NCBI RefSeq assembly: GCF_036321535.1 | Contig: NC_087436.1 | Location: 40,426,001-40,490,000 of the forward strand | DNA from: Camelus dromedarius | Taxonomy: Eukaryota | DNA: 64,000 nucleotides | Direction of reading: 5' to 3' | Shown here: positions 10,566 to 62,014 of the stretch, in pieces | Position numbering within the stretch: position 1 is the stretch's first letter | Layout: each line of letters opens with the position of its first letter | The notes under the pieces: model-generated | Database searches by the model: none | What the model was told of the DNA's origin: nothing | The model's input: the letters and a program-made list of their open reading frames with translations, nothing else | Made by a program: the position numbers and the translations under genes

Positions 10566-10945
10566 TCTACTCATTTTTATGTTGGTTTAGACATAGATGA
10601 TTAATGATTGATTTAATAAAAGGTGATATAACCACTATCAATTGAAATAGATTCATATTTATAAAATATCCTATTCTTCTTTCCTAATCTTGCTCTATTA
10701 AACAATTGTGGCAATGATATGATCAAAGAAATAGAAAGCAAGATTAACAATTTTTTTGTGTGTACATGTAGCTGATGTTAAGAATATTTTAACAGAAAGA
10801 AAAAACAGTCATTTAAATCTTAAGCTTTCATTCTCTAGCGCTTAGTATCTTCTTCCACCTTACCCTCAAATTAACCCTATAAATTAGATACAGGCACATT
10901 TCATTTAACTGGGCTTCAGTTTATTGTACTTTGCAATAATATATT

Positions 10946-11548
10946 TTCTTCTTTTTTTATTGAGTTATAGTCAGTTTACAATGTTGTGTCAGTTTCTGTT
11001 GTACAGCACAATTTTTCAGTCATACATGAATATACATATATTCATTTTCATATTCCTTTTCACCATGAGTACTACAAGATCTTGTATATATTTCCCTGTG
11101 TTATACAGTATAAACTTGTTTATCTATTCTATGTATACCTGTCAGTATCTACAAATCTCGAACTCCCAGTCTGTCCCTTCCACTCCCCGCTGGCAACCAC
11201 AAGTTTGTATTCTATGTCTATGAGTCTGTTTCTGTTTTATATTTAAATTAATTTACCTTCTTCTCTTATTTTTTTTAGATTCCACATATGAGTAATGTCA
11301 CATGGTATTTTTCTTTCTTTCTGGCTTACTTCACTTAGAATGACATTCTCCAGGAGCATCCATGTTGCTGCAAATGGTGTTATGTTGTCAGTTTTTATGG
11401 CTGAGTAGTATTCCATTGTATAAATATACCACATCTTCTTTATCCAGTCATCTGTTGATGGACATTTAGGCTATTTCTGTGTCCTGGCTATTATAAATAG
11501 TGCTGCTATGAACATTGGGGTGTAGGTGTCTTTTAGAATTAGGGTTCC
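10946..11548 (-). mobile_element. Young 5'-truncated L1 nested in Tigger1
   Basis: T-tract, 3' UTR and ORF2 C-terminus (MWYIYTMEYYSAIK..PFAATWMLLENVILSEVSQ). TSD ttgcaataatatatt (10931-10945) / ttgcaataatgtgtt (11549-11563). Confidence 0.92.
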
Positions 11549-11901
11549 TTGCAATAATGTGTTGTTTTTTTTCCCCCAAATTGAAGGTTGTGGTAACCAA
11601 GTACTGAGCAAGTCTGTTGGGACCATTTTCCAACAAAATGTGCTTACTTCATGTCTCTGCAACACATTTTGGCAATTCTCACAACATTTCAAACTTTTTT
11701 CATTGTTATTATATTTGCTATGATGATCAGTGATTAGTGCTGTTTAGTGTTTGTATTTTAACTGCAGTTGTGGTGGAAATAGCACAAGAACTAGAAGTAA
11801 AAGTAGACACTGAAGATGTGATTGAATTGCTGCAATTTCATGATAAAAGCTTCATGGATGAGGAGTTGCTTCTTATGGATAAGAAAAGAAAGTGGTTTCT
11901 T

Positions 11902-16099: not shown

Positions 16100-19000
16100 A
16101 AAAATAGTTCACCCATTTCTCATTCTCTTCCCCCAGCTTTGGCAAGAACTAATCTCATTTTTGTATATATGATTTGGGTTTGTTTGTTTTAGATTCTACA
16201 TATAGGAGAGATCATACAGTATTTGTCTTTCTCCATCTGACTTATTTCACTTAAAATAATGCCCTTGAGGTCCTTTCATGTTTTTGCTAAGGACATGATT
16301 TTATTTCTTATGGCTGAATAATATTCCATTGTGTGTATGTTTATATGTGTGTGTGTGTGTGTGTGTGTGTATATCTCACATTTTCTTTATCCATTCATCC
16401 ATTGATGGACATTTGAATTATTTTCATGTTTTGGCTCTTGTAAATAATGCTGCAGTGAACCTGGAGGTGCATGTATCTTTTCAAATTAGTGTTTTCTTTG
16501 GATAAATACCCAGAAGTGAAATTGCTGGATTATACATCAGTCCTACCTTTATATATTTGAAGGGCCTCCGTACCTTTTTCCATAATGGCTATACCTATTT
16601 ATATTCCCACTAACAGTTCTAAAGGGCTCCCTTTTCTCCACATTTTAATAGCACTTGTTATTTCTCGTCTTTTTGATAATAGCCATTCTAACCGGTGTGA
16701 GATAATATCTCATTGTTTTGTTTGCATTTCCCTGATAATTAATAATGTAGAGCATGTTTTATGTGCAAGTTGGTCATCTGTATGTCTTCTTTGGAGAATA
16801 TCTATTCAGACCTCTGCTTTTTTTAAAAAAATTGAATTGTTTGCTTTTTTGCTATTGAGATATATGAGTTTATTATATATTTAAATATTAGCCCCTTATC
16901 ATATATATAACTTGAAAATATTTTCTTCCATTCAGTAGGTTGCCTTTTCATTTTCTTGATAGTTTCCTTTGCTGCAGAGACTTTTTCATTTACTGTAGTC
17001 TAAATTGTTTATTTTTATATTTGTTTCTTTTGCTTTTGGTATCAGATTCAAAAAATCATCACCAAGACCTATGTCAAGGAGCTTACTGCTTGTGTTTTCT
17101 TATAAGGACTTTTAAAGTTTCATGTCTTATGTTCAAGTATTTAATCAATTTGGAGTTAATTTTTGCAGATGGTCTAAGAAAATGGTGTAGTTTCATTCTT
17201 TTATACGTAGTTGTCCAGTTTTCCAAATGTCATTTATTGAACATTATTTATTGATTGTCCTTTCTCCATTATATACTCTTGGCTCCTTTGTCGTAAGTTA
17301 ATGGACCATTTATGTGTGTTTATTTCTGGGCTGTCCACTCTATCCCATTGATCTATGAACCTGTTTTAATGCTAATACTATACTGTTTTAATTACTAAAG
17401 CTTTGCAATATAGTTAGAACTAAGGGACCATGATGCTTCCAGCTTTTTCATTCTTCTTAAGATTGCTTTGACTGTTCAGAATCATTTTTAGTCCCATACA
17501 AATTTTAGGAATGTTTCTTCTATTTCTGTGAAAACTGACACTGGTATTTTCATAGGGATTGAACTGAATCTGCATATTGCTTTGAGTAGCATGGACATTT
17601 TAACAGTAATAATTTTCCAGTCCATGAGGAGGGACTACCTTTCCAATTATGTGTATCTTCATCAGTTTCTTTCATCAAAGTCTTGCAGTCTTTGGGGAAC
17701 AGGTCTTTCAGCTTTGTGTTTAAATTTATTCCTAGGTATTTTATTCTTTTTGATTCAATTGTAAATGGGATTTTTTTTTTTAAATTTCTCTTTCAGGAAG
17801 CTTGTTAATAGTGTATAGAAATGCAATAGGTTTATGTTTATTGATTTTATATCATGCAACTTTACTGAATTCATTTATTAGTTGCAATATTTTTTTGGTG
17901 GAGTCTTTATGGTTTTCTATATATAGTATCACGGCATCTGGAAATAGTGATGTTTACTTATTCCTTTTCAATTTGGTTGCCTTTTTATCTCTTTTTCTTA
18001 TCCAATTGCTGTGTCTAGGACTTCCAATACTATGTTGAATGAAAATGGTGATAGTGGGCACCTTGTCTTATTCCTGATCTTAGAGGAAAAGCTTTCAGCT
18101 TTTCACAGGTAAGTATGATGTTAGCTGTGGACTTGTCATGTATGGCCCTTATCATGTTGAAGTATGTTCCTCTATACCCACTTTACTGAGAGTTTTATCA
18201 TAAATATATGTTGAATTTTGTCAGATGTTTTTTCTGCATCAATTGAATTGATCATATGATGTTTATTTCCTGTCTTCTTAATATGATTTATTACACTGAC
18301 TGATTTATGGATGATGAACCACCCTTGAATTCCTGGAATAAATCCCACTTGATCATAGTATATAATTCTTTTTATGTATTGCTGAATTCGGTTTGCTAAT
18401 ATTTTGTTGAGAATTTTTGTGTCTGTGTTCATCATGGATATTGGCCTGTAATTTTCTTTTGTGGCATTCTTGTCTGATTTTGGTATCAGGGTAATGCTGG
18501 CTGCATAAAATGTGTTTTGAAGAGTTCCCTTCTTTACTTTTTTGGGGAAGATTTTGAGAAGCATCAACATGAATTCTTTGAATATTTGATAGACTGCATC
18601 ACTGAAGCTGTCTGGTCCTGGACTTCTGTTTGTTGGAGGTTTTTGATTACTCCTTTAATCTCCTCACTAGTAACTGGTCTGTTCAAATTTTGTATTTCTT
18701 CTTAATTCAGTCTTGGTAGCTTATATGTTTCTAAAAATTTATCTATTTCTTCTAGATTGTCCAATTTGCTGGCATATCACTGTTCACAGTAGTGTTATGG
18801 TCCTTTATATTTCTGTGGTGTCAGTTGTAATATTTCTTCTTCTCTGGTTTTTTAGTTCCTCTCTGCCCTTTTCTTCTTCTCTTGCTTTTTCCCTTTGGTT
18901 TTTTTTTTTTTTTTTAATTGTTGAAGTACAGTCAGTTACAATGTGTCAATTTCTGGTGTACAGCACAATGTCCCAGTCATACATATATATACATATTCAT

Positions 19001-21658
19001 TTTCATATTCTTTTTCATTAAAGATTGTTCCAAGATGTTGAATATAGTTCCCTGTGCTATACAGAAGAAATTTTGTGTTTTGATGCCTTTCTTTAGTGGT
19101 ATGCTTATATTCCTTTCTATCTTTTGTGTTTTTACTATAAGTTTTTGCCTTGTGTTTATGATGAGACTTATATGTAACAAGTTATTACCTATAGCAGTCT
19201 ATTTTAAGTTGATAACAACTTAAGTTTAATCCCATTGTAAAGCTCACTATTATTACTCTTCCCCTAAACACTATGTTTTTGATGTTACATGTTACATCTT
19301 CTTATATTGTATACCCCTTAACTAATTATTGTAATCATAGTTATCTTTTACTACTTTTGTCTTTTAACATTTATACTAGCTTTAAAAGTGATTAATCTAC
19401 TACCTTCACTGTATATTTACATTTCCTGTGAGATTTGTTTTCTTCATGTGTGTTCTTATTACTAGTTAGCACCCTTTCTTTTCAGTTTAAAAAAGTCCCT
19501 TTAACATTTCCAGTAGAGCCAGTTTAGTGATGATGAACTGCTTTAATATTTCCTTGTCTGAAAAATTCTCTCTCTCCACTTCTGAGTGATAACTTTGCTG
19601 AGTATTCTTAGCTGAATATCTTCTTCTCTCTGCTTTGAAAATATGGTGCCACTCCCTTCTGGCCTGTGACATTTCTGCTGAAAGTCTGCTGATAGTCATA
19701 TGGGGGGCTGCTTGTGTGTAACAAGCTGTTTTTTTCTTGCTGCTTTTAATATTATCTCCTCATCTTTAACTTTTGACTTTTTATTGTAATATGTCTTGGT
19801 GTGTGTCTCTTCAGGTTCCTCGTACTTGAAACTCTCTGGGATTCCTCAATCTGGATGTCCTTCTTTTCTCAGGTTAGAAAAGTTTTCAGCCATTATTTCT
19901 TCAAATAAGATTTCTGTCCCTTTCTGTCCACTCCTTCTGGAAGTCCTATGATGCATATGTTAGTCCATTTGATGTTGTCCTATAAGTTCCTTATGCAATC
20001 TTTGCTTTTAAAATTCTTCCCCCCACCATGCTCTGATTGAGTGAGTTCCACTGCTTTGTCTTTGAGTCAACTGATCCTTTCTGTTGCTTCCTCTAGTCTG
20101 CTGATTAAAACCTTTAGTGTATTTTTCTGCTCAATTATTGTATTCTTCACCTCTGTGACTTCTGTTAGGTACTTTCTTATATTTTTCATCTCTTTGTTGA
20201 ATTTCTCACTGTGGTCATCTGTTCTTCTCCCCAATTTGGTTAAGTATCATTATGACCATTACTTTAAACTCCTTATCAGGCAAATTATTTTTCTCCATTT
20301 TATTAAGAATTTTTCTGATGTTTTATCTTGTTCTTTCACTTGAAACATAGTCCTCCGTTTCTTCATTTTGCTTAACTCTCTGTGTTGGTTTCTATCTAGT
20401 CAATAAAACAACTCTCTCTCCCAGGCTTGAAGGAGTGGCCTTGTGTGGGAGATGAACCTTGTCATTAAACTCCGCCTCAGCTCTTGACTGTCCCCCAAAC
20501 CTTTGTGCTTGTCCAAGCAGGCTATTGTATTTTTAATAGCTCCTGGAAATTGAGGATGTGCTAAGACCTGTCAGTGTCCCATACAGGAGAATCTCAGCAC
20601 CTAGATTCAGGCTGTTGGGAAACCAGACCCTCAGGCATCAGCTTTTAAAAGTATATGAATATGTACAGTACTGTAGAACTTCAAGCATAAGATCCATTGT
20701 CCATCAGAGCCACGCCATCTGGAGGTGGTCCTGGGTAGCAGTCACAGAGATCGTGATTCCAAACAAATGTATGTGCTCTTTTCTGGGTGATACTGGTGAA
20801 CTGGAGCAAGGCAGAGGGAGAGTGCCAGGATGGCATTCACAGCCTACGTTCCTTGAGAGCAGCTCCCTAGGCCACTAAATGTGTGCCAAGTCTGAAGCCT
20901 GCCCCTCAGACCAAAGCTCCAGGACAAGCAAAGAGGCCTCTTTCACAGAAAGATTGGGGACTGTGCCTCAGTCCACTGTCTGTGAAGTGTCTTGAGGGAT
21001 TAGCCTGCCAAGAATCGCCTCTACCATTGCCACAATCCAGTGCAACCAGGAATGAAAGCTTCCTCAGCCACCAGAGACATGATCAAAAGGTGTCCCTTGG
21101 GGGAAGCTGCAACAAATAGGGCATCAGATGTGTGTAAAACTCCCCTCCAGGAGACACTGGTGCTGTGGATCATTGCAGAGGATAAGCATGAAGTTAGCTC
21201 CCACTGTGTGAGGTCTCTGTGTGAGTCTGAGTTCAAGAGCCCTTTAAGAGCAGTTTCTCAGACTGTATAGTCTTGTGGGTTTCAGGATGAGAGTCTCATT
21301 GGTTTTCAAAATTAGATGTTTTGGGAGTTCATCTCTCAAGTGTATGTCTTAAAAGTTGGGGTGCTTTATATAGGCTTTGAACCCTCCACTCCTAAGAGAG
21401 AAGCTCTGGGTTCTGAGTTCCCTCTTTTTGTGGGATTGCTGTACCAGGGGTGGCATAGATTTATGGCAAGATTGTGTCTCAACCTGTCTTCTCTACTTCA
21501 GTGTGGCTTTCTTCTCGTTTGCCTAATGTACAGTTACCATTCAGCCAGACTTAGGTGTTCTTAAGAGGAAATTGATCTCTTTGTAGCTGTAGACTCACTG
21601 TATTTGTGGGAGGAAGTGAGTTCAGGATCTTCCCACATCACCATCTTGAACTGGAATC
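16100..21658 (-). mobile_element. Near full-length old L1 (5' UTR, ORF1, most of ORF2, part of 3' UTR) with an internal deletion
   Basis: RT-region peptide 18172-18570 ([54 protein letters not shown]). ORF1 C-terminus 19487-19699 (RLSAEMSQARREWHHIFK..LKQFIITKLALLEMLKGL). The 5' terminus reads gattccagttcaagatggtgatgtgggaagatcctgaactcac on the minus strand. Many stops and frameshifts. Confidence 0.93.
18899..19072 (-). mobile_element. Younger L1 3'-end fragment nested in the old L1
   Basis: Long T-tract, then ttgaagtacagtcagttacaatgtgtcaatttctggtgtacagcac...aatatagttccctgtgctatacagaagaa. Confidence 0.85.
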
Positions 21659-31055: not shown

Positions 31056-31721
31056 GTAGCATTATTTAAGACCCCACAAGGCATATGGGGCAAGCTTACA
31101 GTTCACATGGGTTCTCTGTGATTCTTCATCCATCCACATCCCTGTTAGACTGTCTTTTTGTATCCTTGCAATAAAGAGGCTTAGTAATTGTCTAATGTTG
31201 TGTGGTTATTAAAACTGGTCTCTAAGGCCTATACATATGTGTTTTTTAGAATCACATACTTCTTTCTACTTCAGCTCCTATTGACAAACTTTACTTTTCT
31301 GAGTTTCTATTTTGTTTCTGGAAGTTGTAAATTCCTTCATCTTATTTTAAAGCTCAGCAATGAAGTTTTTTATTTTTTAGATCACACACACTATATATAA
31401 TATGTATATGTGTGTATATATTATATATACACACATACATAGACAGAGCTGTGTGTGTAGGGATCTTTTCACACTGGTTTTGTTTATCATGCAGAAAAGC
31501 ATTTTAAAACTGAAATTAGATAAACGGAATCATATTTTATAGAGGAAAACAGTCTGATTCCCAAAGATGCCTTTATTTAACCAAATGTAATTTTTGTTCT
31601 ATATAAACATTTAAAAAGTATGCAAAATTTGAGAACAGTCCTGGGACTATTTGAAGATTCATCTTTATATCCTACTCCGTAGTAGTTGCAGAATATGCTA
31701 AGAATTCTACGTTCTGTGGCT

Positions 31722-33365
31722 ACTATGTTCACGGATTGGAAGATGTAATATTGTTAAAATGTCTGTACTACCCAAAGCAATTTACAGATTCAGTAAATCC
31801 CTATCAAAATCCCAATGACATTTTTTTTATAGAAATAGGAAAAAAGCCTAAAATTCATATGGAATTTCAAGGGACTCCAAATAGCCAAGATAATCTTAAA
31901 AAAAGAAGAAAGTTGGAGATCTCACATTTCCTGATTTAAGAACATTTTACAAAGCTAATATAATCAAAACATGTGGTACTAGGATAAAGACAGACACATA
32001 AACCAGTGAAACAGAATAGAGAGCCCAGAAATAAACCCTTGCATGTATGGTCGAATGATTTTTACAAAGATGCCAAGACCACACAATGGGGAAAGGACAG
32101 TTTCTTCAACAAATGTCTCTGGGAAAACTTGATATCCATATGCAAAAGAATGAAGTTGAACCTGTACCTTAAACCATACACAAAGTTTAACCAAAAATTG
32201 ATTAAAGATATAAACGTAAGACCTAAAACTATGAAACTCCTAAAATAAAATATAGGGGAAAGTCTAAAGATTGGATTTGGAAATCATTTCTTGTATATGA
32301 CATCAAAGCACAGGAAATGAAAGCAAAAATAGACAAATAAGACATTAAACTCAAAATTGTGTATAAAGAAAACAAAAACAATCAATGGTGTGAAAAGTCA
32401 ACCTACAAAATAGAAGAAAATATTTGTAAATCATGTACTAATTAGGGGTTAATGAGCAGAATATATAGATAACTGCTATAACTCAATAACAAATAAACAA
32501 ATAATTCAATTTAAAAAATGAACAAAGGATTTGATTAGGCATATCTTTAAAGCAGACATACAAATGGCCAAGAACCATGTGAAAAGATGTTCAGTATCAC
32601 TAATCATTAGAGAAATGCAAATAAAAACCTTAATGTGATATCATTTCATAGCCATTAGGATGGACACTATCAGAAAAGAAAAAAAACAAACAACAAACAG
32701 AAAATACCAAGTATTGTTGAGGATTTGGAGAGATTGGAACCCTCATGCACTTCACATGGGAATGTAAAACAGGGGAGTTTCTATGGAAAACAATATGGAG
32801 GGTCCTCAAAAAATTAAAAGTAGAGTTACCATATGATCTAGCAATCCCACTTCTACATGTATATCCAAAAAATTTGGAAATAGTATCTTCAACAGATATT
32901 TACACACCCATGTTCATTGCAGCATTATTCACAAAGGCAAAAGTTGGAAGCAACACATAGGTCCACCAATGAATGAATGGATAAGAAAATGTAGTGTATA
33001 CATACAGTGGAATAGTATTCTTCCTTATAAAAAAAGAAAGCACGTCATCACATGCTACAACATGGATGAAATTTGAGGATATTATGCTAAGTGAAATAAG
33101 CAGTCATAGAAAAATACTGTATGGTTCCAGCATATGAATCAAACTCTTAGAAGCAGAAAGTAGAATGGTGGTTGCCAGGATATGGGGGTGGGGGGTGGTG
33201 CAGAGATGAGTACATGAGAAATGGGGAGTTGTTCAACAGGTATAGAGTTTCCGTTTTGCAAGATGAAGAGTTCCAGAGATTGGTCGCACAACAATGTAAA
33301 TAGAGTTAACACTACTAAAGTGTACAGTTAAAAATGTTTGACTGTGATTTTTAAAATTAAAAATA
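31722..33365 (+). mobile_element. 5'-truncated L1 (L1MB-like): ORF2 C-terminus and 3' UTR
   Basis: Peptides QWGKDSFFNKCLWENLISICKRMKL..PYTK and WRVLKKLKVELPYDLAIPLL..YTPMFIAALFT. 3' UTR agagtttccgttttgcaagatgaagagttccagagattgg. Confidence 0.9.
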
Positions 33366-40050: not shown

Positions 40051-40680
40051 GTACTCCCTAATGACAGTAAGTCACAGGATTTCCATTGTTTGTCTTGTCT
40101 CTGTTCTATAATGTACTGTCAGCAACCAGAAGCCAGAAAGAATAAAAGGCACAAAGATAGATAATGGAAGTTTCTATAGCAGCAGGATCTCAGACAATAG
40201 AAACAAAGAATGATAATTTCAAGGCATGATAATTTCAAAGGCTTTGAAGGCATGGTAATTTTCAAAAGCTCACAGTTAATCTATTGATGAGTAAGATGTC
40301 TTTAAAGGTATTATATAAGTCATATGACAACAATAAAGATTTGTTTCTGTTTTTGCTTTACTGTCACATATCCAAAAACAGCAAGATTTGCCTGTGGACA
40401 ATTGAACTTAGTCATTTTTACTGTTATGGTGAAAATGCAGATGTTACCAGAAAATAAGTAAAGGCAGTTAAAATATTTATATTCAGTTACTGCAGAGTCA
40501 AAAACAGTTTGGTTGCAATTACAAATGTATTTTTAGTCACTAATTGTTTTTATATGTGTGAGTGTATATGTGCAACTTGGGGATGGTTTCATGCCATTTT
40601 AGATTTTTGCCTCTTTTTCTGATTGTTTACATTTAGTTTTCATTCAGTTGTTTTTGTTCTACTGGTTTTCATGCACTTTA

Positions 40681-42608
40681 TTTTTTATTGAAGTATAATC
40701 AGTTTACAATGTTGTGTCAATTTCTGCTGTACAGTATAATGTTTCAGTATTAGATACATACATTCCTTATCATATTCTATTTCATTATAGGTTACTACAA
40801 AATACTGAGTATAGTTCCCTGTGCTATGTAGCAGGACCTTGTTGTTTATCTATTTTATATATAGTAGTTAGTATCTGCAAATCTTGAACTCCCAATTTAT
40901 CCCTTATCACCCCTTTTCCCCATTGGTAACCATAAGTTTGTTTTCTCTAGCTGTGAGTCTGTTTCTGTTTTGTAAACTAGTTCATGTATATATTTTTCTT
41001 TTTAGATTCCATATATAAGTGATATCATATGGTATTTTTCTTTCTTTTTCTGGCTTACTTCACTTAGAATGACATTCTCCAGGAGCATCCATGTTGCTGC
41101 AAATGGTGTTATGTTGTCAGTTTTTATGGCTGAAGAGTATTCCATTGTATAAATATACCACTTCTTTATCCAGTCATCTGCTGATGGACATTTAGGCTGT
41201 TTCCATGTCTTGGCTATTGTAAATAGTGCTGCTATAAACATTGGGGTGCAGGTGTCATTTTGAAGTAGGGTTCCTTCTGGATATACGCCCAAGAGCAGGA
41301 TTCCTGGGTCCTATGGTAAGTCTATTTCTAGTCTTTTGAGGAATCTCCATAGTGTTTTCCACAGTGGCTGCACCAAACTACATTCCTACCAGCAGTGTAG
41401 GAGGGTTCCCTTTTCTCCACAGCCTCTCCAGCATTTGTCATTTGTGGATTTTTGAATGATGGCCATTCAGACTGGTGTGAGGTGATACCTCATTGTAGTT
41501 TTGATTTGCATTTCTCTGATAATTAGTGATATTAAGAATTTTTTTCATGTGCCTATTATTTGTATGTCTTCCTTGAAGAATTGCTTGTTTAGGTCGTCTG
41601 CCCATTTTTGGATTGGGTTGTTGGTTTTTTCCTTATTAAGTCGTGTGAGCTGCTTATATATTCTGGAGATCAAGCCTTTGTCAGTTTCATTTGCAAAAAT
41701 TTTTTACCTTTCTGTAGGTTGTCTTTTTGTTTTACTTATGGTATCCTTTGCTGTACAGAAGCTTGTAAGTTTCATTAGGTCCCATTTGTTTATTCTTGCT
41801 TTTATTTCTATTGCTTGAGTAGACTGTTCTAGGAGAACATTTTTGAGATGTATGTCAGATAATGTTTTGCCTGTATTTTTTTCTAGGAGGTTTATTGCAT
41901 CTTGTCTTATGTTTAAGTCTTTGATCCATTTTGAGTTGATTTTTGTGTATGGTGTAAGGGAGTGTTCTACCTTCATTGTTTTACACGCTGCTGTCCAGTT
42001 TTCCCAACACCATTTGCTGAAGAGACTGTCTTTATTCCATTGTATATTCTTGCCTCCTTTGTCAAAGATTAGTTGACCAAAAGTTTGTGGGTTCATTTCT
42101 GGGCTCTCTATTCTGTTCCATTTGGTCTATATGTCTGTTTTTGTACCAACACCATGCTGTCTTGATGACTGTAGCTCTATAGTATTGTCTGAAGTTGGGG
42201 AGAGTTATTCCTCCAGCCTCTTTCTTTCTCTTCAGTAATGCTTTGGCAATTCTAGGTCTTTGATATAAATTTTATTATGATTTGTTCTAGTTCTGTGAAA
42301 TATGTCCTGGGTAATTTGATAGGGATTGCATTAAATCTGTAGATTGCCTTGGGCAGTGTGACCATTTTAACAATATTGATTCTTCCAATCCAAGAGCATG
42401 GGATATCTTTCCATTTTTTTAAAGTCTTCTTTAATTTCCTTCATCAATGGTTTATAGTTTTCTGGGTATAATTCTTTCACCTCCTTGGTTAGATTTATTA
42501 CTAGGTATTTTATTACTTTAGGTGCTATTTTAAAGGGGATTGTTTCTTTATTTTCTTTTTCTGTTGATTCATCATTAGTGTAAAGAAATGCAACTGATTT
42601 TTGAATAC
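40681..42608 (-). mobile_element. Young 5'-truncated L1, 1.93 kb
   Basis: Perfect 14-bp TSD tttcatgcacttta (40667-40680, 42609-42622) at a TT/AAAG-type site. ORF2 peptides [65 protein letters not shown] and IQKSVAFLYTN. Frameshifted. Confidence 0.95.
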
Positions 42609-43759
42609 TTTCATGCACTTTAAATTTTGTCCTCTTATTGAATTGTCTGAAAGCAAAAAACTACCAATGATTGTTTTGAAATTATTTAAGTATTTATTTT
42701 CATAAAAATGGATGACTAAGAAACTTAAAAACCATTTGAAAGGAATTTTACATTTTGTGAAGTATTTTTATTTTAAAAATTAATTTGTAAGTGCCTAATG
42801 GTGGCTATATTGTCTCTATGGAGATGTTCTTACCTTTTTCCTTGCATTTTTAATTCTGTGAAAGCAGGGCTTCAGGTAGCATTTAAATATAATTTACACC
42901 ACTCAGTGTAGTTGCTATCCTGTAAAACAATTTCTCCTTTCAAGACTGATGCCTTAGGAAGGAATCACGTACAATTTTAATCACATTCAGTGACATGTTT
43001 ACACATACGAAATTGAACTATGATCCTAAGAATCATGTGTAAATTTTCAAAAACATCTCAGAGTTTGTGAAAATGTCCCCCAGATTTAGATACAAGGATG
43101 AAAACGCTGAAAGGTCCAATACAGTGACAAAGCACCCCTACTGTGCACAACATTTTAAGTTCTTGAAAATAAGTGGCTAGAAATAATCATTGTTAACCAA
43201 TTTGACTTTTGGAGCAATGTGTCATAATTTTTGAGTCAATCAGCTCTTTTTCAACTATTTCATCTTGAATTAAATAAGGTAGGGCTATGTTTGTCAACAC
43301 CAGCCCTGGAAATTCAAAGCCACTAGGAGAGAAAATTCAATTTGAGGCAATTGTTCATAAAAAAGTCTCCTGAGGGTATTCCCCCTTTTTTCCCCCTCTC
43401 TCTGTTTACTCATTGAGGCATAGTATGGAGTTCCCTCAGAATTCTCAGTTTCACTATACTTCAGAAATGAAAGATGACTAAGAATATATTGCTGAGTAAA
43501 AGTAGCACTTTTCCAGGAAAGTATGGTTCATATGACACTGGTTTCATACAAGAAAGAAAATTAAAAACATCTGTATGCAGTTGATTATCATTCTTCAAGA
43601 TAGTGAATAGTAGTGGTAGGAGTATTTGACCAGCTCTAGGGCATCCTTTAGCCCAGTCAGTCACCCCCTCACGGCCCCAGATAGCAGGCTCCTGGATGCA
43701 GTTTTGAGGGAAAATTACCTGCCTAAGGATTGAACCTTAAGACCCACATATTTAGTATA

Positions 43760-50055: not shown

Positions 50056-51691
50056 ATGATGATGTCGGGGTGCTAACTGGGATCTTTTTTTTTGCAAGGG
50101 TACCAATCCTATTCATAAGTGTTTGGTTTCACAAGGTACAAGACCTTATTGAGATCACCCTAAATTAGAACAAGTACTATCTCCGTTCCACGTGCTCCTG
50201 ACATCATCAGAGATGTGAAATTATTTATTCTTGCTTTTAGATTGAAGTTCCCCAGATGGTACTGTCCCTCTGATTCTAGGTAATAGAGAGGATAGTCTCC
50301 TGAGTTCAGCAGCTAAGGGAAAAGTAGGGCTGAAGCTCAGCTACACTGACTACTGTTACCAAACCAATCCCTTCAAAAAAGAAAAAAGAAAAAAGAATCT
50401 TGATAGTTTTTCTCCTTTCTCTCCTTCTAAAGCTTGTGTCTAAGATTTTGTACTCCGTTTCTTGTACAATACATGGCATCCTGTTTTGTTTTCCTCCCCC
50501 AGCACTTTAAAGACTAGATTATCTCTCACGATATTATGTCTTAAATGTAGAAGTTTATTTTGGTCAGAAGTTTTGTAGTTTTTCCCATAAGCACTGTGTA
50601 TTTTTCAAATTCAAATTACTTTTAAATAATGACTTTCTCTGGAAAGTTGAAATTTGTATGAATTTCTGAACATCAGAAATAAAAATACCAGGGTCTACCT
50701 ATGATAATTGATTTTTACAAGTGGAAAGGCCATAAAATATCCCAAAGCAACTTATGAATAGTATGTTTCCATGTTGTTATTAATTTATATATTCAAAATT
50801 TTATTTTATACTTTTTGATATTCAAATTTTTAATGGAGTCCATCCATATAAAGTCTACATGTTAAATTACTAAGTCTTTGTATTAAACAGACAATTCTAT
50901 TTTCTGATCATATAATAAATTGCTATGTAAACAATCTCAGGCTTATTGGCAATCAATGATATCGATGTCATAAATCAAGGGCTGAATCCAGCAGGTAGTA
51001 TTCTGCATCTTTGCACCATACACAAAATATTATAGCCCAGTGAATAACCAACTACTATGGTTAAAGATCTCTACCTATATAAGAAAAAGTGAAAATTCAA
51101 AATCTTCTCATTTAGTAGGCTTATAAATTCTTGACAATTATTAACATGTCTTCTATTCTTATTCCACATAAGGCCTCTGAGATCAATTGTCTTCGTCTTC
51201 TGTCTTTAAATTCCTTCAATTTTTGTTTTCCACAAAATTTCCTTTAACATCCTTACACCATATGTCACCAGGAACAGAACTGATATCACAGACAGATTTC
51301 TTACCAGCTATTAAATAATTCATCAAAGAGTAGCAACTGCTAGTCTCTGTGAAGCCTGGCAGATGTGGAGCCGCATGGTGACGGGCGAAAAAAATCTCTG
51401 TCTTCCATTTGTCCTTGATGGTAACTATGGTTCTGTTTTGAGTAAAAGTCCCACACAGGATCTCATTTTCTGTGAAGCTTTTAATTGGTATCAATAGGAT
51501 ACACACTAATATATAATTAAAATCTGTGAAAAGTTTTCTAAAACTGTGACATAATTATATAGAAATCTGTAAGAAAATATCACTTCTTTATAGTCAGTTT
51601 GTGTTAAAAATAGTTGGAATCATTGAATATGAAATGGTGTGAATATGTTTAACTTTGCTTTTTATCTTCGTTCCAAATTACTTTTGGGGGG

Positions 51692-54923: not shown

Positions 54924-56569
54924 TTTTCCTGGTGCGATTACTCCTTACCATAGGAATAAAATGTAAATAACAGACTTCTGGGTACACTGGTACATTGGAC
55001 AGGTATTACTGAAAGAGATACTATGACTGACCAAGTCTCAGTCTTGGAAATCTCTGTCCAAGAGAAAAAATAGACTAAGTATGCCTGGGTGCTCTATGTT
55101 TGATTTATAACTATCTCTTAAAAGAGGACTTCTATTTGGATTTTATTATTTCATAATATAGGACAATTTACAATGATGTAACCAGGGTGAACTTTGTTCC
55201 AATCATGATAGAGACCCTGACCTCTGCTCTTTGTTTTGAGGACTAATATGTATCTTTGTATCAGTACCTAATTAGATAAATTTGAACTTGTCAACTCATT
55301 AAGGTGGCATCTTCCAGTTAACTTATCCTATGACAGTATAGAGTTAGTTTTTATAGGATGATTTTTTTCTTTGGTTGTTTTTTTAATTCATTCATTGTTC
55401 CCCATTTTTTTTCTTCAAATGAACATTTATGATGTTTTATTACTGTCCATGTTCTTAAAAAAAGCTATTTGCTTAAGTCAGTAGAAAAGTCTGAATATGA
55501 ACCTTGTTACTTTTAAAGGAGTAAACATTGTTACTTTTAGAAGAAATGATCTAGTTGATGCAAAGACTGTTTCAGCTGATTCACATCTTTACAGGTTGTA
55601 CTAGTGAATACAGATTTGAAATTGTAACATATAGGCACACACACACTCATATACACACACAGAGACAGACACACACACAGGTGCTGGTACAAATTTGGAA
55701 ATTTTGACATTCCTCTCTCTTTGTCTCCAGATCCTTCCTTTGATAGGTGTGAGAATTCTGTTTAAACTTACCTGTACATAGAGTGTACAAAAGTGTATCT
55801 AGATTTACAGCAAAGGTTTAGAGATTTCAATAGACACATTCAGAATCCAGAATTAATGAGATGCGAAGGCAAACAAAAAAAGTAAAAAAAGAAAAAAAAA
55901 ACACTGTAGTGGTAAATATATACACCTGCAACAGCTGAGAAACTAGGTAGATTCTCCAGAAAAATGTGGAAAATGTCTGCACTGGTCACACTCAGGTTTA
56001 CTTTGAGGTACTGCTTTCAAACTGGAACTTATCTAGAGGAATATGTTAAGATTTGGGGAAAAAATGTTGAAGGATCTGGAACAGTGTTCAAACCTAAACT
56101 TATCAAGAGGAAGATGAAAGATTTGGTAAATATGTTGACAAAATTTGAACTTTTAACACCAAAAAGGGAAAAAAATTAGTGAGCTTGTGATATTAGAGAG
56201 GCATATTTCTGTTTAGAAGAATACTCTAATATTGAAAATTATTCCAACAGGCTACACTGTAAGAAAAATGTGTTTTAAATTGTTGTAATCCTTTACAGTT
56301 TCAACGTTTTTACATTAACCATTTCACTGCACACTTACAACATTATTGAAGCAATGCAAGACAGATTTTTTTTTTTTTTTTGCTGTCTCATTAGACGAAG
56401 AAACTGAAGACAAGAAAGATCAAAAAAGCCATTACAGGCTCAAATCTTAAATACTGATTTAATATTCTAATCATGTTTTCTATTCACTACATCACAGTGG
56501 TCTCTAGTGGGTACAATGGCTTAAGTATTTTGGCATAATTTTTAAGAGCCCGTAACTGAACGTAAGGGG

Positions 56570-56780
56570 TATTAGAATGAAGTGAATAAAAGCGTAGACT
56601 CTGGAACTAGATGGTGTCAGTACAAATCTCAGTTCTTCCAATTACTAGCATTTTTCTCACTTGTGAAATTGTGTTAATAAATTTGCATGCCTTAAAATAT
56701 AAGTTGTGGGAATTAAGCAAGTCAAGGTATGGAAAGTGCTTAGCAATGCGTAAATCTCTGTGTTAGGTAAAATCATCACC
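56570..56780 (+). mobile_element. MIR SINE
   Basis: aaagcgtagactctggaactaga..caaatctcagttcttccaattactagc..gttgtgggaattaa..atggaaagtgcttagca. Confidence 0.6.
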
Positions 56781-57991
56781 ATCACATCATCTGGCACATG
56801 AAATTTACCTCATATATGTTAGCTTCTTTATATAGCCTCCAAAATGTGACTTTGGAGGACAAATTTATACTTTATTGTGAGATCTCTAGAAATATAAGGA
56901 TGAGAGGGTGGGTAGTGAGCTTGAAAAAGGTAACATCTTGAGTTCCCTTTTCATGGTGGCTTTTTACTATGCATATTATTGTGTCATCAGTGTCAAACAG
57001 AAGTCATCTCCCAAGCCAGATATGTCCTGGATTTTTTTTTTTCTTTTCCCATACAAATCAATCACATAGATTTCTAAACTAGATCTGAAATATGTGTGGG
57101 GGCAGGGGGAGAATTGGGGATACTGATATACTGATACACATTGGAATGCTAATACAGGCCTTAGTAGATTTTAAAATCTTAGGAGATTTAAAACTCTTAT
57201 TTAGTAATTATCTGTATAATGTGTGCTAACTAGAAGAATTTTTCCTGAAATGTTTAGTTTTGTTCTTAATATAATTTCCAGGCTTGCAGTCTTCTGACTT
57301 ACTGAAAATAAATTCCTCATACTTGACTTATTGTTCATAGGGCTGAAATTCTCTAGGAAAATAACCAAATTTACATATTTGAGTTATGCACTCTAAAGCG
57401 AGGTGAAGTGAATGCATCTTTTCCTACAGGTGATCAAACAAAATGGAAGGTATAAGTGAGTCAACAAAAATTGAAGGGAAATGACAATCCATTAGGGTTT
57501 ATGGACTGCGAAAAGATGGATGCAGTGTATGTGTAATTCTAGCTTCTTTGTTTTCAAATGCATGAACCGTAGATATATCCTTAGCTTCATCTGTGTTATA
57601 AATTTATTTATCTCAGTATTATCAAGAAATGGCTAGACCGAATAGAATACTTTCATCCAATACAAGCTAGCATCCACTGCCCATTTAAATATTAGTGTTT
57701 TGAACTGTATGTGTAGATTTTTGAAACAGGTTTTATTGTTCTGCTGAGCAAGGAAGGTAATATTTTAGCCAATGTGGGGATAAAATCCTGTGAAATAATG
57801 ACAGTGGATGGATAAATAGTAGCCAATATGGCTCTCCTATGAATGAAGAATAATCTAACTTCCATAAATTGTAAGGCCACTAAGATGAATCAAGAATAAA
57901 ATAAATAAATCTCATGGAAAAATGCTGATAGAACAGTATAGATACTTCAGTGTGGAAAAAAAAAGTAAGAATTTGATTTAATAACCACTTT

Positions 57992-58614
57992 TGGTGCAGC
58001 AGGTAAAATTCCTTCTCTACTGTCTTAGGATATACAGCAGGGACTGACATAAAACAGATTAAGAGAAGAAAAGCCTACAGTTTTTTTAGTAATTTTTACA
58101 TGTACATGATAGCCCTCACTAGAAAAATGAAGACCCTAGAAAAGCAATTAGAGCTGAATTCTTCCAAACTGGAACTTATCTAGAAGACTATATATGATTT
58201 GGGGAAAAATGTTGAAGGATCTGGAACTGTGTCTAAACCTGAACTTAAGAAGGGGAAGTCGGACCAAGATTTTAAAGGTGGCCACTTATGAAAATGTTAC
58301 AAGAAAGAGGGGTTTAGGCTGGCAAAGTTCTTGGAGGAAAAGTAACTAGGAAGATAACGCTTAGTTTAACCAATTTGTTTGTGTAGATTTCTCTCAGCCT
58401 CAGCTTCCCATCTCCAGTTACAAGAATGGCTGCCTTCCTATGTGAAAGGTACAGGGAGGGTACCTTTCACATAGGAATTTTATCTCCTGCTTTTAGGAAG
58501 AAAAAAAGATTAGAGAATTCCTCCTGCACCTGCTGTTTCTCAAGTGCCTTTAACTCAAAATATTCAACATGCTGAAATGGGATATTTTGGCGTAACATGC
58601 TCTGAACCGGTACA
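57992..58614 (-). mobile_element. ERV1 solo LTR (MER34-like) carrying a templated insertion
   Basis: TG...CA termini with a perfect 4-bp TSD cttt (57988-57991, 58615-58618). The minus strand begins tgtaccggttcagagcatgttacgccaaaatatccc..ttttgagttaaaggcacttgagaaacagcagg. Confidence 0.82.
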
Positions 58615-59067
58615 CTTTCAACAGAAAACAAACAAAAAAAGTGCTATCCACGGTGAGATCTATCGTCTTAATAATAGCAAATAATTACAAAGCATACTTT
58701 AATTCTAATAATTGGAATTAAGCAATAGCAAGAATAATGCTAAAATGATAAAATACTGTATTTTTTCAAATGAGAATACATTTTTATAACTTTATTATAT
58801 GTAGTATTTAGCTGACAATTCAGAGACTACGATATGATCACCAACACTAACAATGAAAGGGTAAGGTGAAATTAGACTTGCTTTATATGAGATTAAAACT
58901 GCTGCTAATTTTGTGATTTCTCATTCAATTTGCCACTTGCAAAATATGACAACATTTATTAAAGAAGGTTAAATATACAGTGATGGACAACTTCTGGAAG
59001 AAAAGCGATGTTTTAAAGTACTGATATGGCCAAACATTCTGACATTTAGCATCTGGATGGTTGTTTA

Positions 59068-60154
59068 TTTCTTTTTCTTTTTTAAAAGACTTTTAAAATT
59101 AAAAAAAAAAATTCCAGCTTTATTGAGATATCATTGACATACAATACTGTATAAATTTAAGGTGTACAACTTAATGATTTGATTTGCACACATCATGGAA
59201 TGATTATCACAATAAGTTTAATGAACAACCATCATCTCATAGAGGTACCCAATGAAAAATATAGAAAAAACTTTTTTTGTGATGAGAATTCTTAGGATTT
59301 ACTCTCTCAACAACTTTCATATATAACACACAGCAATGACCATTGTATTTATCATGTTGTTTATTACATCTCTAATACTTATTTATCTTAAAACTGGAAG
59401 TTTGTACCTTTTGACAACTTTCATCCAGTTCCCCCTCCCCCTATGCTTGCCTCTGGTAACCACAAATCTCATCACTTTTTCTATGAATTTGTTCACTTGT
59501 TTTTGAAGTATAATTGACCTGCAACACTGTATTAGTTCCTGTTGTACAACATAGTGATTTTTTTTTCCCCTTTACATTTCAAAATGATCGCCACAATAGG
59601 TCTAGTTATATGCCAGGAAACAAAGGTATTATTTAGTTATTGACTATATGCCCCACTTTGTTCATTTTGTATCTGTGACTCATTCATTTTGTAACTGGAA
59701 GTTTGTACCTCTTAATCTGCCTCATCTATTTCTTTCCTCCCCAACCTATTTGTTTTCTGTATCTATAATTCTGTTACTGTCTTCTTGCTCGTTTGTTTCA
59801 GTCTTTTTAGATTCCATGTATAAGTGAAATCATACTTTGTGGGGCCCCCAGGCTGGGGAGCCCGATGTGGGGCTTGGATCACTCCCTCCTGAGGGAGGAC
59901 CTCTGAAACTGTTATTATCCTCCCAGTTGTGGGTCACCGACCTGGAGTGTGAGTCTTGATTATGTTGCATCTCCACCACTTCTACCCGACTTGTGGTTTT
60001 TCCTTCTTTACATCTTTGCTTGTAGAAGATCTTTTCTGCTAGTATTCTGTTTTTTTTTCTCATCAGTAGTTTCCCTGTAAATAGTTGTAGTTTTGGGGTG
60101 CCCAAGGGAGGACATGAGTTCAGAGTCTTCCTACTCCATCATCTTGATGACTCC
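59068..60154 (-). mobile_element. L1 made of about 320 bp of 5' UTR joined to about 770 bp of 3' end
   Basis: 59111-59835 is an antisense L1 3' UTR (doubled aactggaagtttgtacc module, tttttagattccatgtataagtgaaatcatac). 59836-60154 is an antisense L1 5' terminus (minus: ggagtcatcaagatgatggagtaggaagactctgaactc), similar to the terminus at 21600-21658. Confidence 0.85.
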
Positions 60155-62014
60155 TTTACTATTTAGTGTGTTGTTTAGTTGTTTTACTATTTGCTCAGAA
60201 ATATGTGTAAAATATTGGTAGGCATCTTGTTATTATAAAAATTAGAGTTTACCTATATGGTAGTGTCTTGTTTTTCTAATGATTGTGGAAAATTTTAATC
60301 AAAATTTTAAAGGTGGCCTCTTATGGATATGAATTAGTCAATTTTAAAATGTCTAATATACATTTTCCTTCTGTGCCTGGGAAATGTTTGAAAACAGAAG
60401 TAAGAGAAGACAGCTGGGTTTTCTTTGCCACAAATGGAGATTCAGATTTTGGAATCTCTATACATGGAGGGTCTTCCATCATGTGCAGGAGAAATAAATG
60501 CAACTCCAGAATGCACTTCTGTTTAGAGACACTAAGAATAGTTCAGATTTCACTGCCATCTTTTCAGAGTGCAAATAGTCCCAAGTTCTTGGCATCATAC
60601 GGGGAAACAAAACCAGTACTAAAAGAGGATCATGAAACAGCTGAACATTTTGGCTGTGGGGAAGCTGAGATCTTTGTGAGATCTGCTGTGGATGGGATGA
60701 CACAGCAATGACCTGTGGTAAGTGGAAACACACAGGAAATGAACTTTGATAGACCAATAACAGAGAAACCATTCATAAAGTACTTGTCTAATCCACAGTG
60801 GTTCTCTCTAAGGAGGCAGTAATGATCCTTGTTAAAATAAGCAGCATCTTTTCTTTCTTTTCTAAATACTTTTCCAAACAATCCTATTTAAAAGTATTTT
60901 ATTTAGATTTTCTCACAAATGTTAAATTGGTTATCTGCTGTGATCTTTCATCACGTCCCTATTGCCTACTTTTTAACAATTATTTGGTATTATATCATCG
61001 GTAGTGTAGTAGTAGTAGTATTTTATTCTTAGTATTATCAGCATGACTTTTTCCTTACTAAAGAATTAGCATCAAAGAACCATCACTGAGATTTTCTCTC
61101 AAATTACCCTAAGCTGACTTTTTTATTCTTAACAATACTTAAGAAAGGGGATTCTACAGTCTTATCTGGTAATATACATATTCATGAAGGTTTTGTTTTT
61201 GTTTTTGTTTTTTTGCATTTGTGAACTTCTTTATAGCAAACCTAAATTGCTCTTGTTACAGATTATACCCATTTCCTGTAGGTCACTGGAGATAAATGCA
61301 ATTGATGATTGACATTTTCTGTGTACTGACATTGAAGATGAAACTCATTAGGGAGCCATGTAATTATGACAAATGGAACAGAATCATGAAGAAAAGATGG
61401 AAGCTTATTGATATTCTTCAGGTCAATATCAAATCACTTCAAAAAGATTCATAAGAATTTTCTGGAATGATACTCCCCAGCCTCAGTGACCTATTAAAAC
61501 TCTTGTTCAGAAAATTATGATAAACTTACTCAATAGAGTGGAGAGTATAAGAGATTTCAGTACACTGTCTAGTCTTCTTGTATTTTTACAGGTTAGCCTT
61601 TAGTTTATTCTTCTGCCCATTTAGTTTATTCACTGCCATCAACACTTTCAATCTCCTCCCTGTACACAACACAGCTAGGAAATAAATCACTTACAATGTT
61701 ATTAACAGTTGTCCTGTATTTTTGAATGTTATGCCTTACATATAAGTATACAAAATGACTGGAATTAATTGGAACCATGTTTAGTTATTCAGTAAACAAG
61801 TATAGAATGTACCTAATTCCTGTGCATAAATAAAGCCCTTAAAATTTTTTCCCGCTGAAACTCACCCAAATATTGTGGGGTGGATAGCATTATTGTCCCA
61901 TTTTATCTTTGAAGAAAATGAAAAGGGAGGGCTGTTTGAAGAAGCTGTGGCATAGCCACTTAATGACCTACTATGCAGCTAGAAAAACAGGAATGAAAAA
62001 GATCACTTACAAAG

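What the first reader, a model, noticed from the sequence alone, without database searches (positions are those of the whole stretch)
58161..58290. Two-donor templated insertion inside an ERV1 LTR, copied from about 2 kb upstream and about 2 kb downstream
Seen: 58161-58258 is a direct copy of 56014-56113 (by hand about 86% identical; long shared blocks aaactggaacttatctaga and aaaaatgttgaaggatctggaac). After a few linker bases, 58265-58290 (caagattttaaaggtggccacttatg) matches 60300-60325 (caaaattttaaaggtggcctcttatg) at 24 of 26 positions. The composite sits inside a MER34-like LTR that still has intact termini and TSD, so it postdates the LTR. It has no TSD or poly(A). Inference: a fossil double-strand-break repair event with serial template switching (MMBIR/FoSTeS or polymerase theta type) that sampled both flanks, with ttatg as a possible re-entry microhomology.
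Basis: partly seen in the sequence, partly recalled or inferred. Interest (0 to 1): 0.7.

Follow-up and report, generated by a model that had tools for sequence, protein, structure and literature searches.

The report
Fossil two-donor DNA repair patch
An old, dead retroviral end-piece in a mammal's genome carries a 130-base patch copied from two spots about 2 kb to its left and right, most likely the scar of one sloppy DNA repair event tens of millions of years ago: a real and tidy example of a known kind of mutation.

Summary
Observation confirmed. 58161-58258 matches 56014-56113 at 86/100 (E 1e-24). 58265-58290 matches 60300-60325 at 24/26; 0 of 300 shuffles reach that score. Both copies are direct, in genomic order, inside an element with TG..CA ends and a 4-bp TSD (57992-58614). 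The patch has no TSD or poly(A) of its own.

New here: (1) The left donor is itself an older 71-bp tandem dimer and the patch stops inside its second unit, so the patch is probably the copy. (2) A 7-nt word at the inner junction fits both donors (P about 0.02), a likely microhomology. (3) The donors lie near-symmetrically, 2037-2048 and 2004-2010 bp away. (4) A perfect 18-bp hairpin sits about 140 bp away in the same LTR.

Best reading: a germline templated insertion made by microhomology template switching, roughly 20-45 My old. The donor order fits polymerase theta copying of resected tails alone poorly. Not tested: the repeat-family consensus, genome-wide copy number of the donors, and orthologues. 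This is a known class of mutation (MMBIR/FoSTeS, templated insertion). The scan's notes held nothing similar.

The parts
57992..58614 (-). Host element: solo-LTR-like, TG..CA ends; ERV1/MER34-like by recall only
   Evidence: Termini and TSD; chance 0.38%; no second copy of the two arm stretches tested in the window
57988..57991 (+). Left 4-bp target-site duplication of the LTR
58615..58618 (+). Right 4-bp target-site duplication of the LTR
58161..58258 (+). Patch piece A', direct copy of donor A; may run on to 58272
   Evidence: 86/100, E 1e-24
58259..58264 (+). 6-nt linker matching neither donor well
58266..58272 (+). Candidate inner microhomology: identical to 56118-56124 (continuation of A) and 6/7 to the start of B
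   Evidence: 2.1% of 5000 random 17-mers share 7 nt or more with this stretch
58265..58296 (+). Patch piece B', direct copy of donor B (24/26 to 58290, 28/32 to 58296); the right end may overlap LTR sequence
56014..56124 (+). Donor A, upstream; its end is 2037-2048 bp from the patch
56007..56148 (+). Older degenerate 71-bp tandem dimer that contains donor A; the copy stops inside unit 2
   Evidence: 80% over 55 nt, E 1.6e-4; z 11, 0 of 500 shuffles; not reported by TRF
60300..60331 (+). Donor B, downstream; starts 2004-2010 bp from the patch
58435..58477 (.). Perfect 18-bp inverted repeat with a 7-nt loop in the same LTR; likely a short template-switch product; link to the patch unproven
   Evidence: Only non-microsatellite arm of 18 bp or more in the scanned window, 9e-5 expected; z -5.4, 0 of 200 shuffles

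Best explanation
A germline replication or repair accident inside an already fixed solo LTR. A free 3' end in the LTR primed about 2.1 kb upstream and copied about 100-110 nt of donor A. It then moved, through a 7-nt near-shared word, to donor B about 2 kb downstream of the lesion, copied about 20-30 nt, and rejoined the right part of the LTR. Both donors stayed in place (copy, not cut). This is microhomology-mediated serial template switching (FoSTeS/MMBIR type), with at least one step on a sister or duplex template. Shown: the two copies, their order and orientation, no TSD or poly(A). Indicated: the direction from A to patch and the inner microhomology. Inferred: the lesion, the enzymes, the outer microhomologies, any loss of LTR bases, and the age (K2P 0.134; 22-45 My at recalled rates of 1.5-3e-9 per site per year, 11-79 My with the 95% interval). 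No function is implied. Confidence in a local templated insertion of any pathway is about 0.85; in this serial route about 0.5.
For: A/A' 86/100, E 1e-24. B/B' beats 300 of 300 shuffles. Similarity ends sharply at the patch edges, and in 4 of 4 tests the donor flanks are unlike the LTR arms (z -0.4 to 0.9). Donor A sits in an older dimer whose second unit continues past the point where the copy ends (12 of 14 in register with a 2-nt gap). Inner 7-nt word, P 0.021. No other copy of the patch or of either donor region in 64 kb (nhmmer). The class is documented: multi-donor and same-locus templated insertions at induced breaks (10.1101/2022.09.30.509517), 6205 templated complex substitutions in the human pangenome (PMC11724358), and the MMBIR model (PMC2621351).
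Against: No uninterrupted copy of the LTR family was found: 0 hits, and 26 of 26 loci were seed-only chance hits. So the replaced bases and outer microhomologies are unknown. The dimer tail alone is weak (z 1.9, 27 of 500 shuffles). The inner word is offset by 3 nt, was spotted after the fact, and the two donors share it at 6/7 only. B is short (nhmmer E 0.07-0.15) and its region showed L1 similarity in 1 of 40 comparisons (z 3.7). No whole genome is held, so donor copy number is untested.
Confidence: 0.5

Rival explanations
1. Two-ended repair. After symmetric resection of about 2 kb, each 3' tail primed on its own arm near the resection border (left end on A, right end on B). The two extended tails then annealed at the 7-nt word and were joined.
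For: Each piece abuts the LTR arm on its donor's side. The inner ends of the donors lie 2037 and 2004-2010 bp from the patch. One third of donors at induced breaks come from within 2 kb of a cut, read as resected ends (10.1101/2022.09.30.509517; there the nearest cut is not always the acceptor).
Against: The symmetry was noted after the fact, is one case, and includes about 1.1 kb of L1 pieces (59040-60160) of unknown age. It needs two independent priming events.
Confidence: 0.2
2. Ghost of a deletion. A 4.2-kb microhomology deletion first joined the end of A to the start of B on the sister chromatid or homologue, and the broken LTR copied once across that junction.
For: It explains genomic order, direct orientation, the inner word and the symmetry with only one switch in and one out.
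Against: It needs two coupled events. No deleted allele is known, and none could be looked for.
Confidence: 0.12
3. Capture of free fragments (cDNA of a nascent transcript or released single strands) by end joining, as for class 2 templated sequence insertions.
For: No TSD, no poly(A), a short linker and intact donors match the class 2 description (PMC5110952). Both pieces have the same sense.
Against: Class 2 donors are described as distant. No host gene was found (0 of 39 ORFs passed a Pfam cut-off).
Confidence: 0.07
4. Not local copying. The patch is native to this LTR subfamily, or A and B are dispersed repeats whose copies happen to lie nearby, or B is chance.
For: Genome-wide copy number and the family consensus are untested. 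The B region gave weak L1 similarity in one comparison (z 3.7), and A gave z 2.7 against one L1 piece.
Against: No further copy in 64 kb. Donor flanks are unlike the LTR arms. The patch is not L1-like (z at most 1.9 in 10 comparisons). The copy breaks off inside A's older dimer.
Confidence: 0.1
5. Assembly artefact.
For: No read- or contig-level view of the junctions was obtained.
Against: The copies differ at 12 of 98 aligned sites plus 2 gaps, which mis-assembly of one sequence does not produce. 15 of 24 listed runs, from 9 studies and 2 organism labels, hold 94-95% of the sampled words of 55800-60600. One may be the source, and the missing 5% could in principle include the patch.
Confidence: 0.01

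Closest known systems
FoSTeS/MMBIR complex junctions with templated insertions (PMC2621351, PMC5120786; passages seen)
   Same: Short pieces copied from nearby sequence, several switches, microhomology at a junction, donors intact.
   Different: No accompanying large CNV is visible in the window. The event is old and apparently fixed, and the two donors straddle the site at nearly equal distance.
Polymerase theta (TMEJ) templated and patchwork insertions (PMC8654963, PMC10923293, PMC11724358; passages seen)
   Same: Insertion templated from both flanks, no TSD, short microhomology.
   Different: In the passages seen, templates mostly map to the immediate flank; here they are 2 kb away and one piece is about 100 nt. 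The left-then-right order is not what copying of resected tails alone predicts (inference).
Insertions at induced breaks in human cells, Indel-Seq (10.1101/2022.09.30.509517; passages and section 8 seen)
   Same: Donors within 2 kb of breaks; 26% of donors from the acceptor locus itself; 8.7% of insertions have several donors.
   Different: The multi-donor cases there are described as coming from different chromosomes. They are somatic and induced.
Class 2 templated sequence insertion polymorphisms (PMC5110952; passages seen)
   Same: Germline patch without TSD or poly(A), donor retained.
   Different: Donors there are distant and proposed to pass through RNA; here there are two local donors.
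Short-range template switch mutations (PMC5453318; passages seen)
   Same: Explains the perfect 18-bp hairpin in the same LTR.
   Different: That model covers inverted copying within tens of bases, not direct copying from 2 kb away.

Membership tests
Templated insertion (DNA repair patch) | Inserted sequence matches another genomic place beyond chance | tested here: met
Templated insertion (DNA repair patch) | Donor retained (copy, not cut) | tested here: met
   Both donors are present, and A continues its older dimer past the copied part
Templated insertion (DNA repair patch) | No TSD or poly(A), so not L1-mediated | tested here: met
Templated insertion (DNA repair patch) | Absent from the ancestral or empty state of the site | tested here: inconclusive
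   No family copy or orthologue obtained; indirect support only
Templated insertion (DNA repair patch) | Donor is the unique best match in the genome | not testable with these tools
   No genome held; unique within 64 kb
FoSTeS/MMBIR | Two or more template switches | tested here: met
   Two donors, three junctions
FoSTeS/MMBIR | Microhomology at the junctions | tested here: inconclusive
   Inner junction 7 nt, P 0.021; the outer junctions need an uninterrupted copy
FoSTeS/MMBIR | Arises at a stalled or broken fork, independent of RAD51 | not testable with these tools
   Fossil event
TMEJ (polymerase theta) templated insertion | Template in the immediate flank of the break | tested here: not met
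   Donors are about 2 kb away; the immediate flank is the usual origin in PMC10923293, which also shows that other molecules can serve
TMEJ (polymerase theta) templated insertion | POLQ dependence | not testable with these tools
   Fossil event
Class 2 TSIP | Donor in a distant genomic region | tested here: not met
   Both donors are local
ERV1 MER34-group solo LTR (host) | TG..CA termini with 4-bp TSD | tested here: met
   chance 0.38%
ERV1 MER34-group solo LTR (host) | Alignment to the family model | not testable with these tools
   No Dfam or Repbase library; the resemblance is recalled

The most novel reading that the evidence does not exclude
The patch is a fossil ruler of break processing. 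A two-piece insertion whose donors straddle the site collinearly and symmetrically at about 2 kb records either the two resection borders or a lost 4.2-kb deletion junction on the sister chromatid, and the perfect hairpin 140 bp away came from the same error-prone episode. If so, such 'deletion-ghost' insertions form an unrecognised, countable subclass from which germline resection lengths could be read across species.
Probability: 0.15. Interest if true: 0.62.

Novelty: new member of a known kind. Interest (0 to 1): 0.3.

Why it matters
As one neutral event in a dead LTR it changes little: templated insertions with local and multiple donors are documented in cells, model organisms and human pangenomes. 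Its value is as a clean ancient germline example with readable direction, and as a possible phylogenetic marker. The geometry is the part worth following. Collinear, near-symmetric donors on both sides of the site give a testable prediction for pangenome and de novo mutation sets. My 8 literature searches turned up no description of this locus or of that geometry, but they cover only the held open-access library.

Tried and rejected
Own genome: not held. No read or contig laying result was obtained, so depth over the patch and donors is unknown.

Other LTR-family copies or donor copies: 0 matches in viral contigs and in two genome-contig scans. 14 metagenome loci and 12 genome loci matched a 21-nt motif, but all 26 aligned over only 21-31 nt around the seed. 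No match in plasmids. No paper held two or more of four motifs.

Donor A as an ancient L1 fragment: not supported (z at most 2.7 in 20 comparisons). B region as L1: 1 of 10 comparisons at z 3.7, not repeated with the other copies.

Spliced-exon origin of the patch: the donor ends lack GT/AG on either strand (read).

Host gene: 39 selected ORFs of the 131 of at least 70 aa, none above a Pfam cut-off (one DUF4037 hit at E 0.006, below its cut-off). No PDB match for ORF 60283-60708. No homologue for exon-like 60568-60708 among longer proteins (weak evidence). No Rfam hit.

Error-prone synthesis signature in A/A': close mismatch pairs P 0.48, second-longest perfect run P 0.026, 6 transitions and 6 transversions; inconclusive.

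TRF does not report the 71-bp dimer. No supplementary files were read; those of the bioRxiv preprint are closed and may list local donor positions.

Full report
Observation. A self-BLAST of the window finds 58161-58258 matching 56014-56113 at 86 of 100 columns, E 1.3e-24, in direct orientation. The differences are 6 transitions, 6 transversions and 2 gap columns, K2P 0.134. After 6 linker bases, 58265-58290 matches 60300-60325 at 24 of 26, or 28 of 32 to 58296. That short match scores 44. Shuffled queries against the surrounding +-5 kb average 22.5 with a maximum of 32 (0 of 300 reach 44). Only 3 of 230 real tiles do as well, and these are donor A, a CA tract and an L1 piece. Broader searches rate it lower: E 0.002 in the whole-window BLAST and 0.07-0.15 in nhmmer.

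Host element. 57992-58614 begins TG, ends CA and is flanked by the same 4 bases on both sides; 0.38% of random intervals show this. From recall it is a minus-strand ERV1 LTR of the MER34 group; no call tested that name. Two earlier scan notes call this genome camelid; I did not test that. The patch has no TSD-like repeat or poly(A), so L1-mediated insertion is unlikely.

Direction. Donor A lies in an older, degenerate tandem dimer of period 71: 56016-56070 vs 56087-56138, 80% over 55 nt, z 11 against 500 shuffles. The patch carries unit 1 and the first part of unit 2, then turns into B-derived sequence, while the donor's unit 2 continues in register with unit 1 (12 of 14 bases with a 2-nt gap). 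Tested alone that tail is weak (z 1.9), so this is good but not conclusive evidence that A is the source. In 4 of 4 tests the donor flanks do not resemble the LTR arms, so A and B are not remnants of other copies of this LTR. nhmmer finds no further copy of the patch, of the donor regions or of the two arm stretches tested in the 64 kb.

Junctions. The 7 bases at 58266-58272 are identical to the continuation of A (56118-56124) and match the start of B at 6 of 7. Of 5000 random 17-mers, 2.1% share 7 or more bases with that stretch. It was noticed after the fact and needs a 3-base offset. The outer junctions cannot be read without an uninterrupted copy of the element, and all attempts to find one failed.

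Geometry. The end of A is 2037-2048 bp left of the patch and the start of B is 2004-2010 bp right of it. About 1.1 kb of L1 pieces of unknown age lie in the right interval. The pieces keep genomic order and orientation, so the patch reads like the junction of a 4.2-kb deletion. By strand logic (inference), a 3' end annealing to the opposite resected tail copies the opposite flank. A single primer can thus get only one of the two pieces from a resected tail, and two primers would give the reverse order. At least one step needs a sister or duplex template. This favours replication-type switching (0.5), or each end priming on its own arm (0.2), or copying across a deletion junction on the sister (0.12), over plain polymerase theta patching. 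Breakpoints alone cannot separate the replication models (PMC4056370).

A second signature. The same LTR holds a perfect 18-bp inverted repeat with a 7-nt loop at 58435-58477. It is the only non-microsatellite arm that long in the scanned window (9e-5 expected; z -5.4). Short template switches make such hairpins (PMC5453318). If it were as old as the patch it would stay perfect with probability about 0.1, so a separate, younger event or a family feature is at least as likely as a shared origin.

Age and reality. With recalled mammalian rates of 1.5-3e-9 per site per year, the divergence gives 22-45 My (11-79 My with the 95% interval). An assembly error would not yield copies 12% apart. 15 of 24 listed runs from 9 studies hold 94-95% of the sampled words of 55800-60600, though no junction-level view was obtained. 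No host gene was found, so a transcription-coupled route is untested.

Comparison with what is known. In human cells one third of donors come from within 2 kb of a cut, 26% from the acceptor locus itself, and 8.7% of insertions have several donors (10.1101/2022.09.30.509517; passages and section 8). In the human pangenome 6205 of 56,222 complex substitutions show templated-insertion signatures (PMC11724358; passages). Patchwork insertions from break flanks occur in worms and plants (PMC8654963, PMC10923293; passages). Class 2 TSIPs are germline patches from distant donors (PMC5110952; passages). MMBIR and FoSTeS explain multi-switch junctions (PMC2621351, PMC5120786; passages). In a yeast mutant, two pieces from one locus in the same orientation were called very rare (PMC11724301; passages). 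The finding works like these events and meets the testable features of a templated insertion. It does not meet the 'immediate flank' feature of typical TMEJ or the 'distant donor' feature of class 2 TSIPs.

Verdict. A real, probably neutral fossil templated insertion, a new member of a known kind; interest 0.3. The boldest reading left open is that collinear, symmetric, straddling donors mark a subclass that records resection borders or lost deletion junctions (probability 0.15, interest 0.62 if true). It can be tested in pangenome data.

Noticed in passing
window 58435-58477: Perfect 18-bp inverted repeat with a 7-nt loop inside the LTR, likely a short template-switch product.
   Followed up: partly
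window 56007-56148: Degenerate 71-bp tandem dimer of unknown origin, missed by TRF.
   Followed up: partly
window 60568-60717: Exon-like stretch with good acceptor and donor and a 47-codon open frame ending in a stop; no homologue found. Two very short exon-like stretches near 55733-55748 and 57430-57449 were seen by eye and not tested.
   Followed up: partly
window 63942-63611, 61978-61866, 55925-55772, 55053-54949 (minus strand): Splice-site pairs from a crude scan; could be exons of a non-coding transcript or chance.
   Followed up: no
window 59040-60160: Old minus-strand L1-like pieces with internal repeats (59120-59220 vs 59500-59604, 69%; 59357-59506 vs 59658-59811, 65%) and a part 59% like 21357-21649. 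Their age decides the symmetry argument.
   Followed up: partly
window 60180-60450: Weak similarity of the donor B region to one L1 ORF2 copy (z 3.7, 1 of 40 comparisons).
   Followed up: partly
window 51216-51554 (minus strand): 112-codon open frame without a Pfam hit; not examined further.
   Followed up: no
window 10900-11800, 16100-18800, 31600-33200, 40600-42800: Several decayed L1 copies with ORF2-like frames (L1 label recalled).
   Followed up: no
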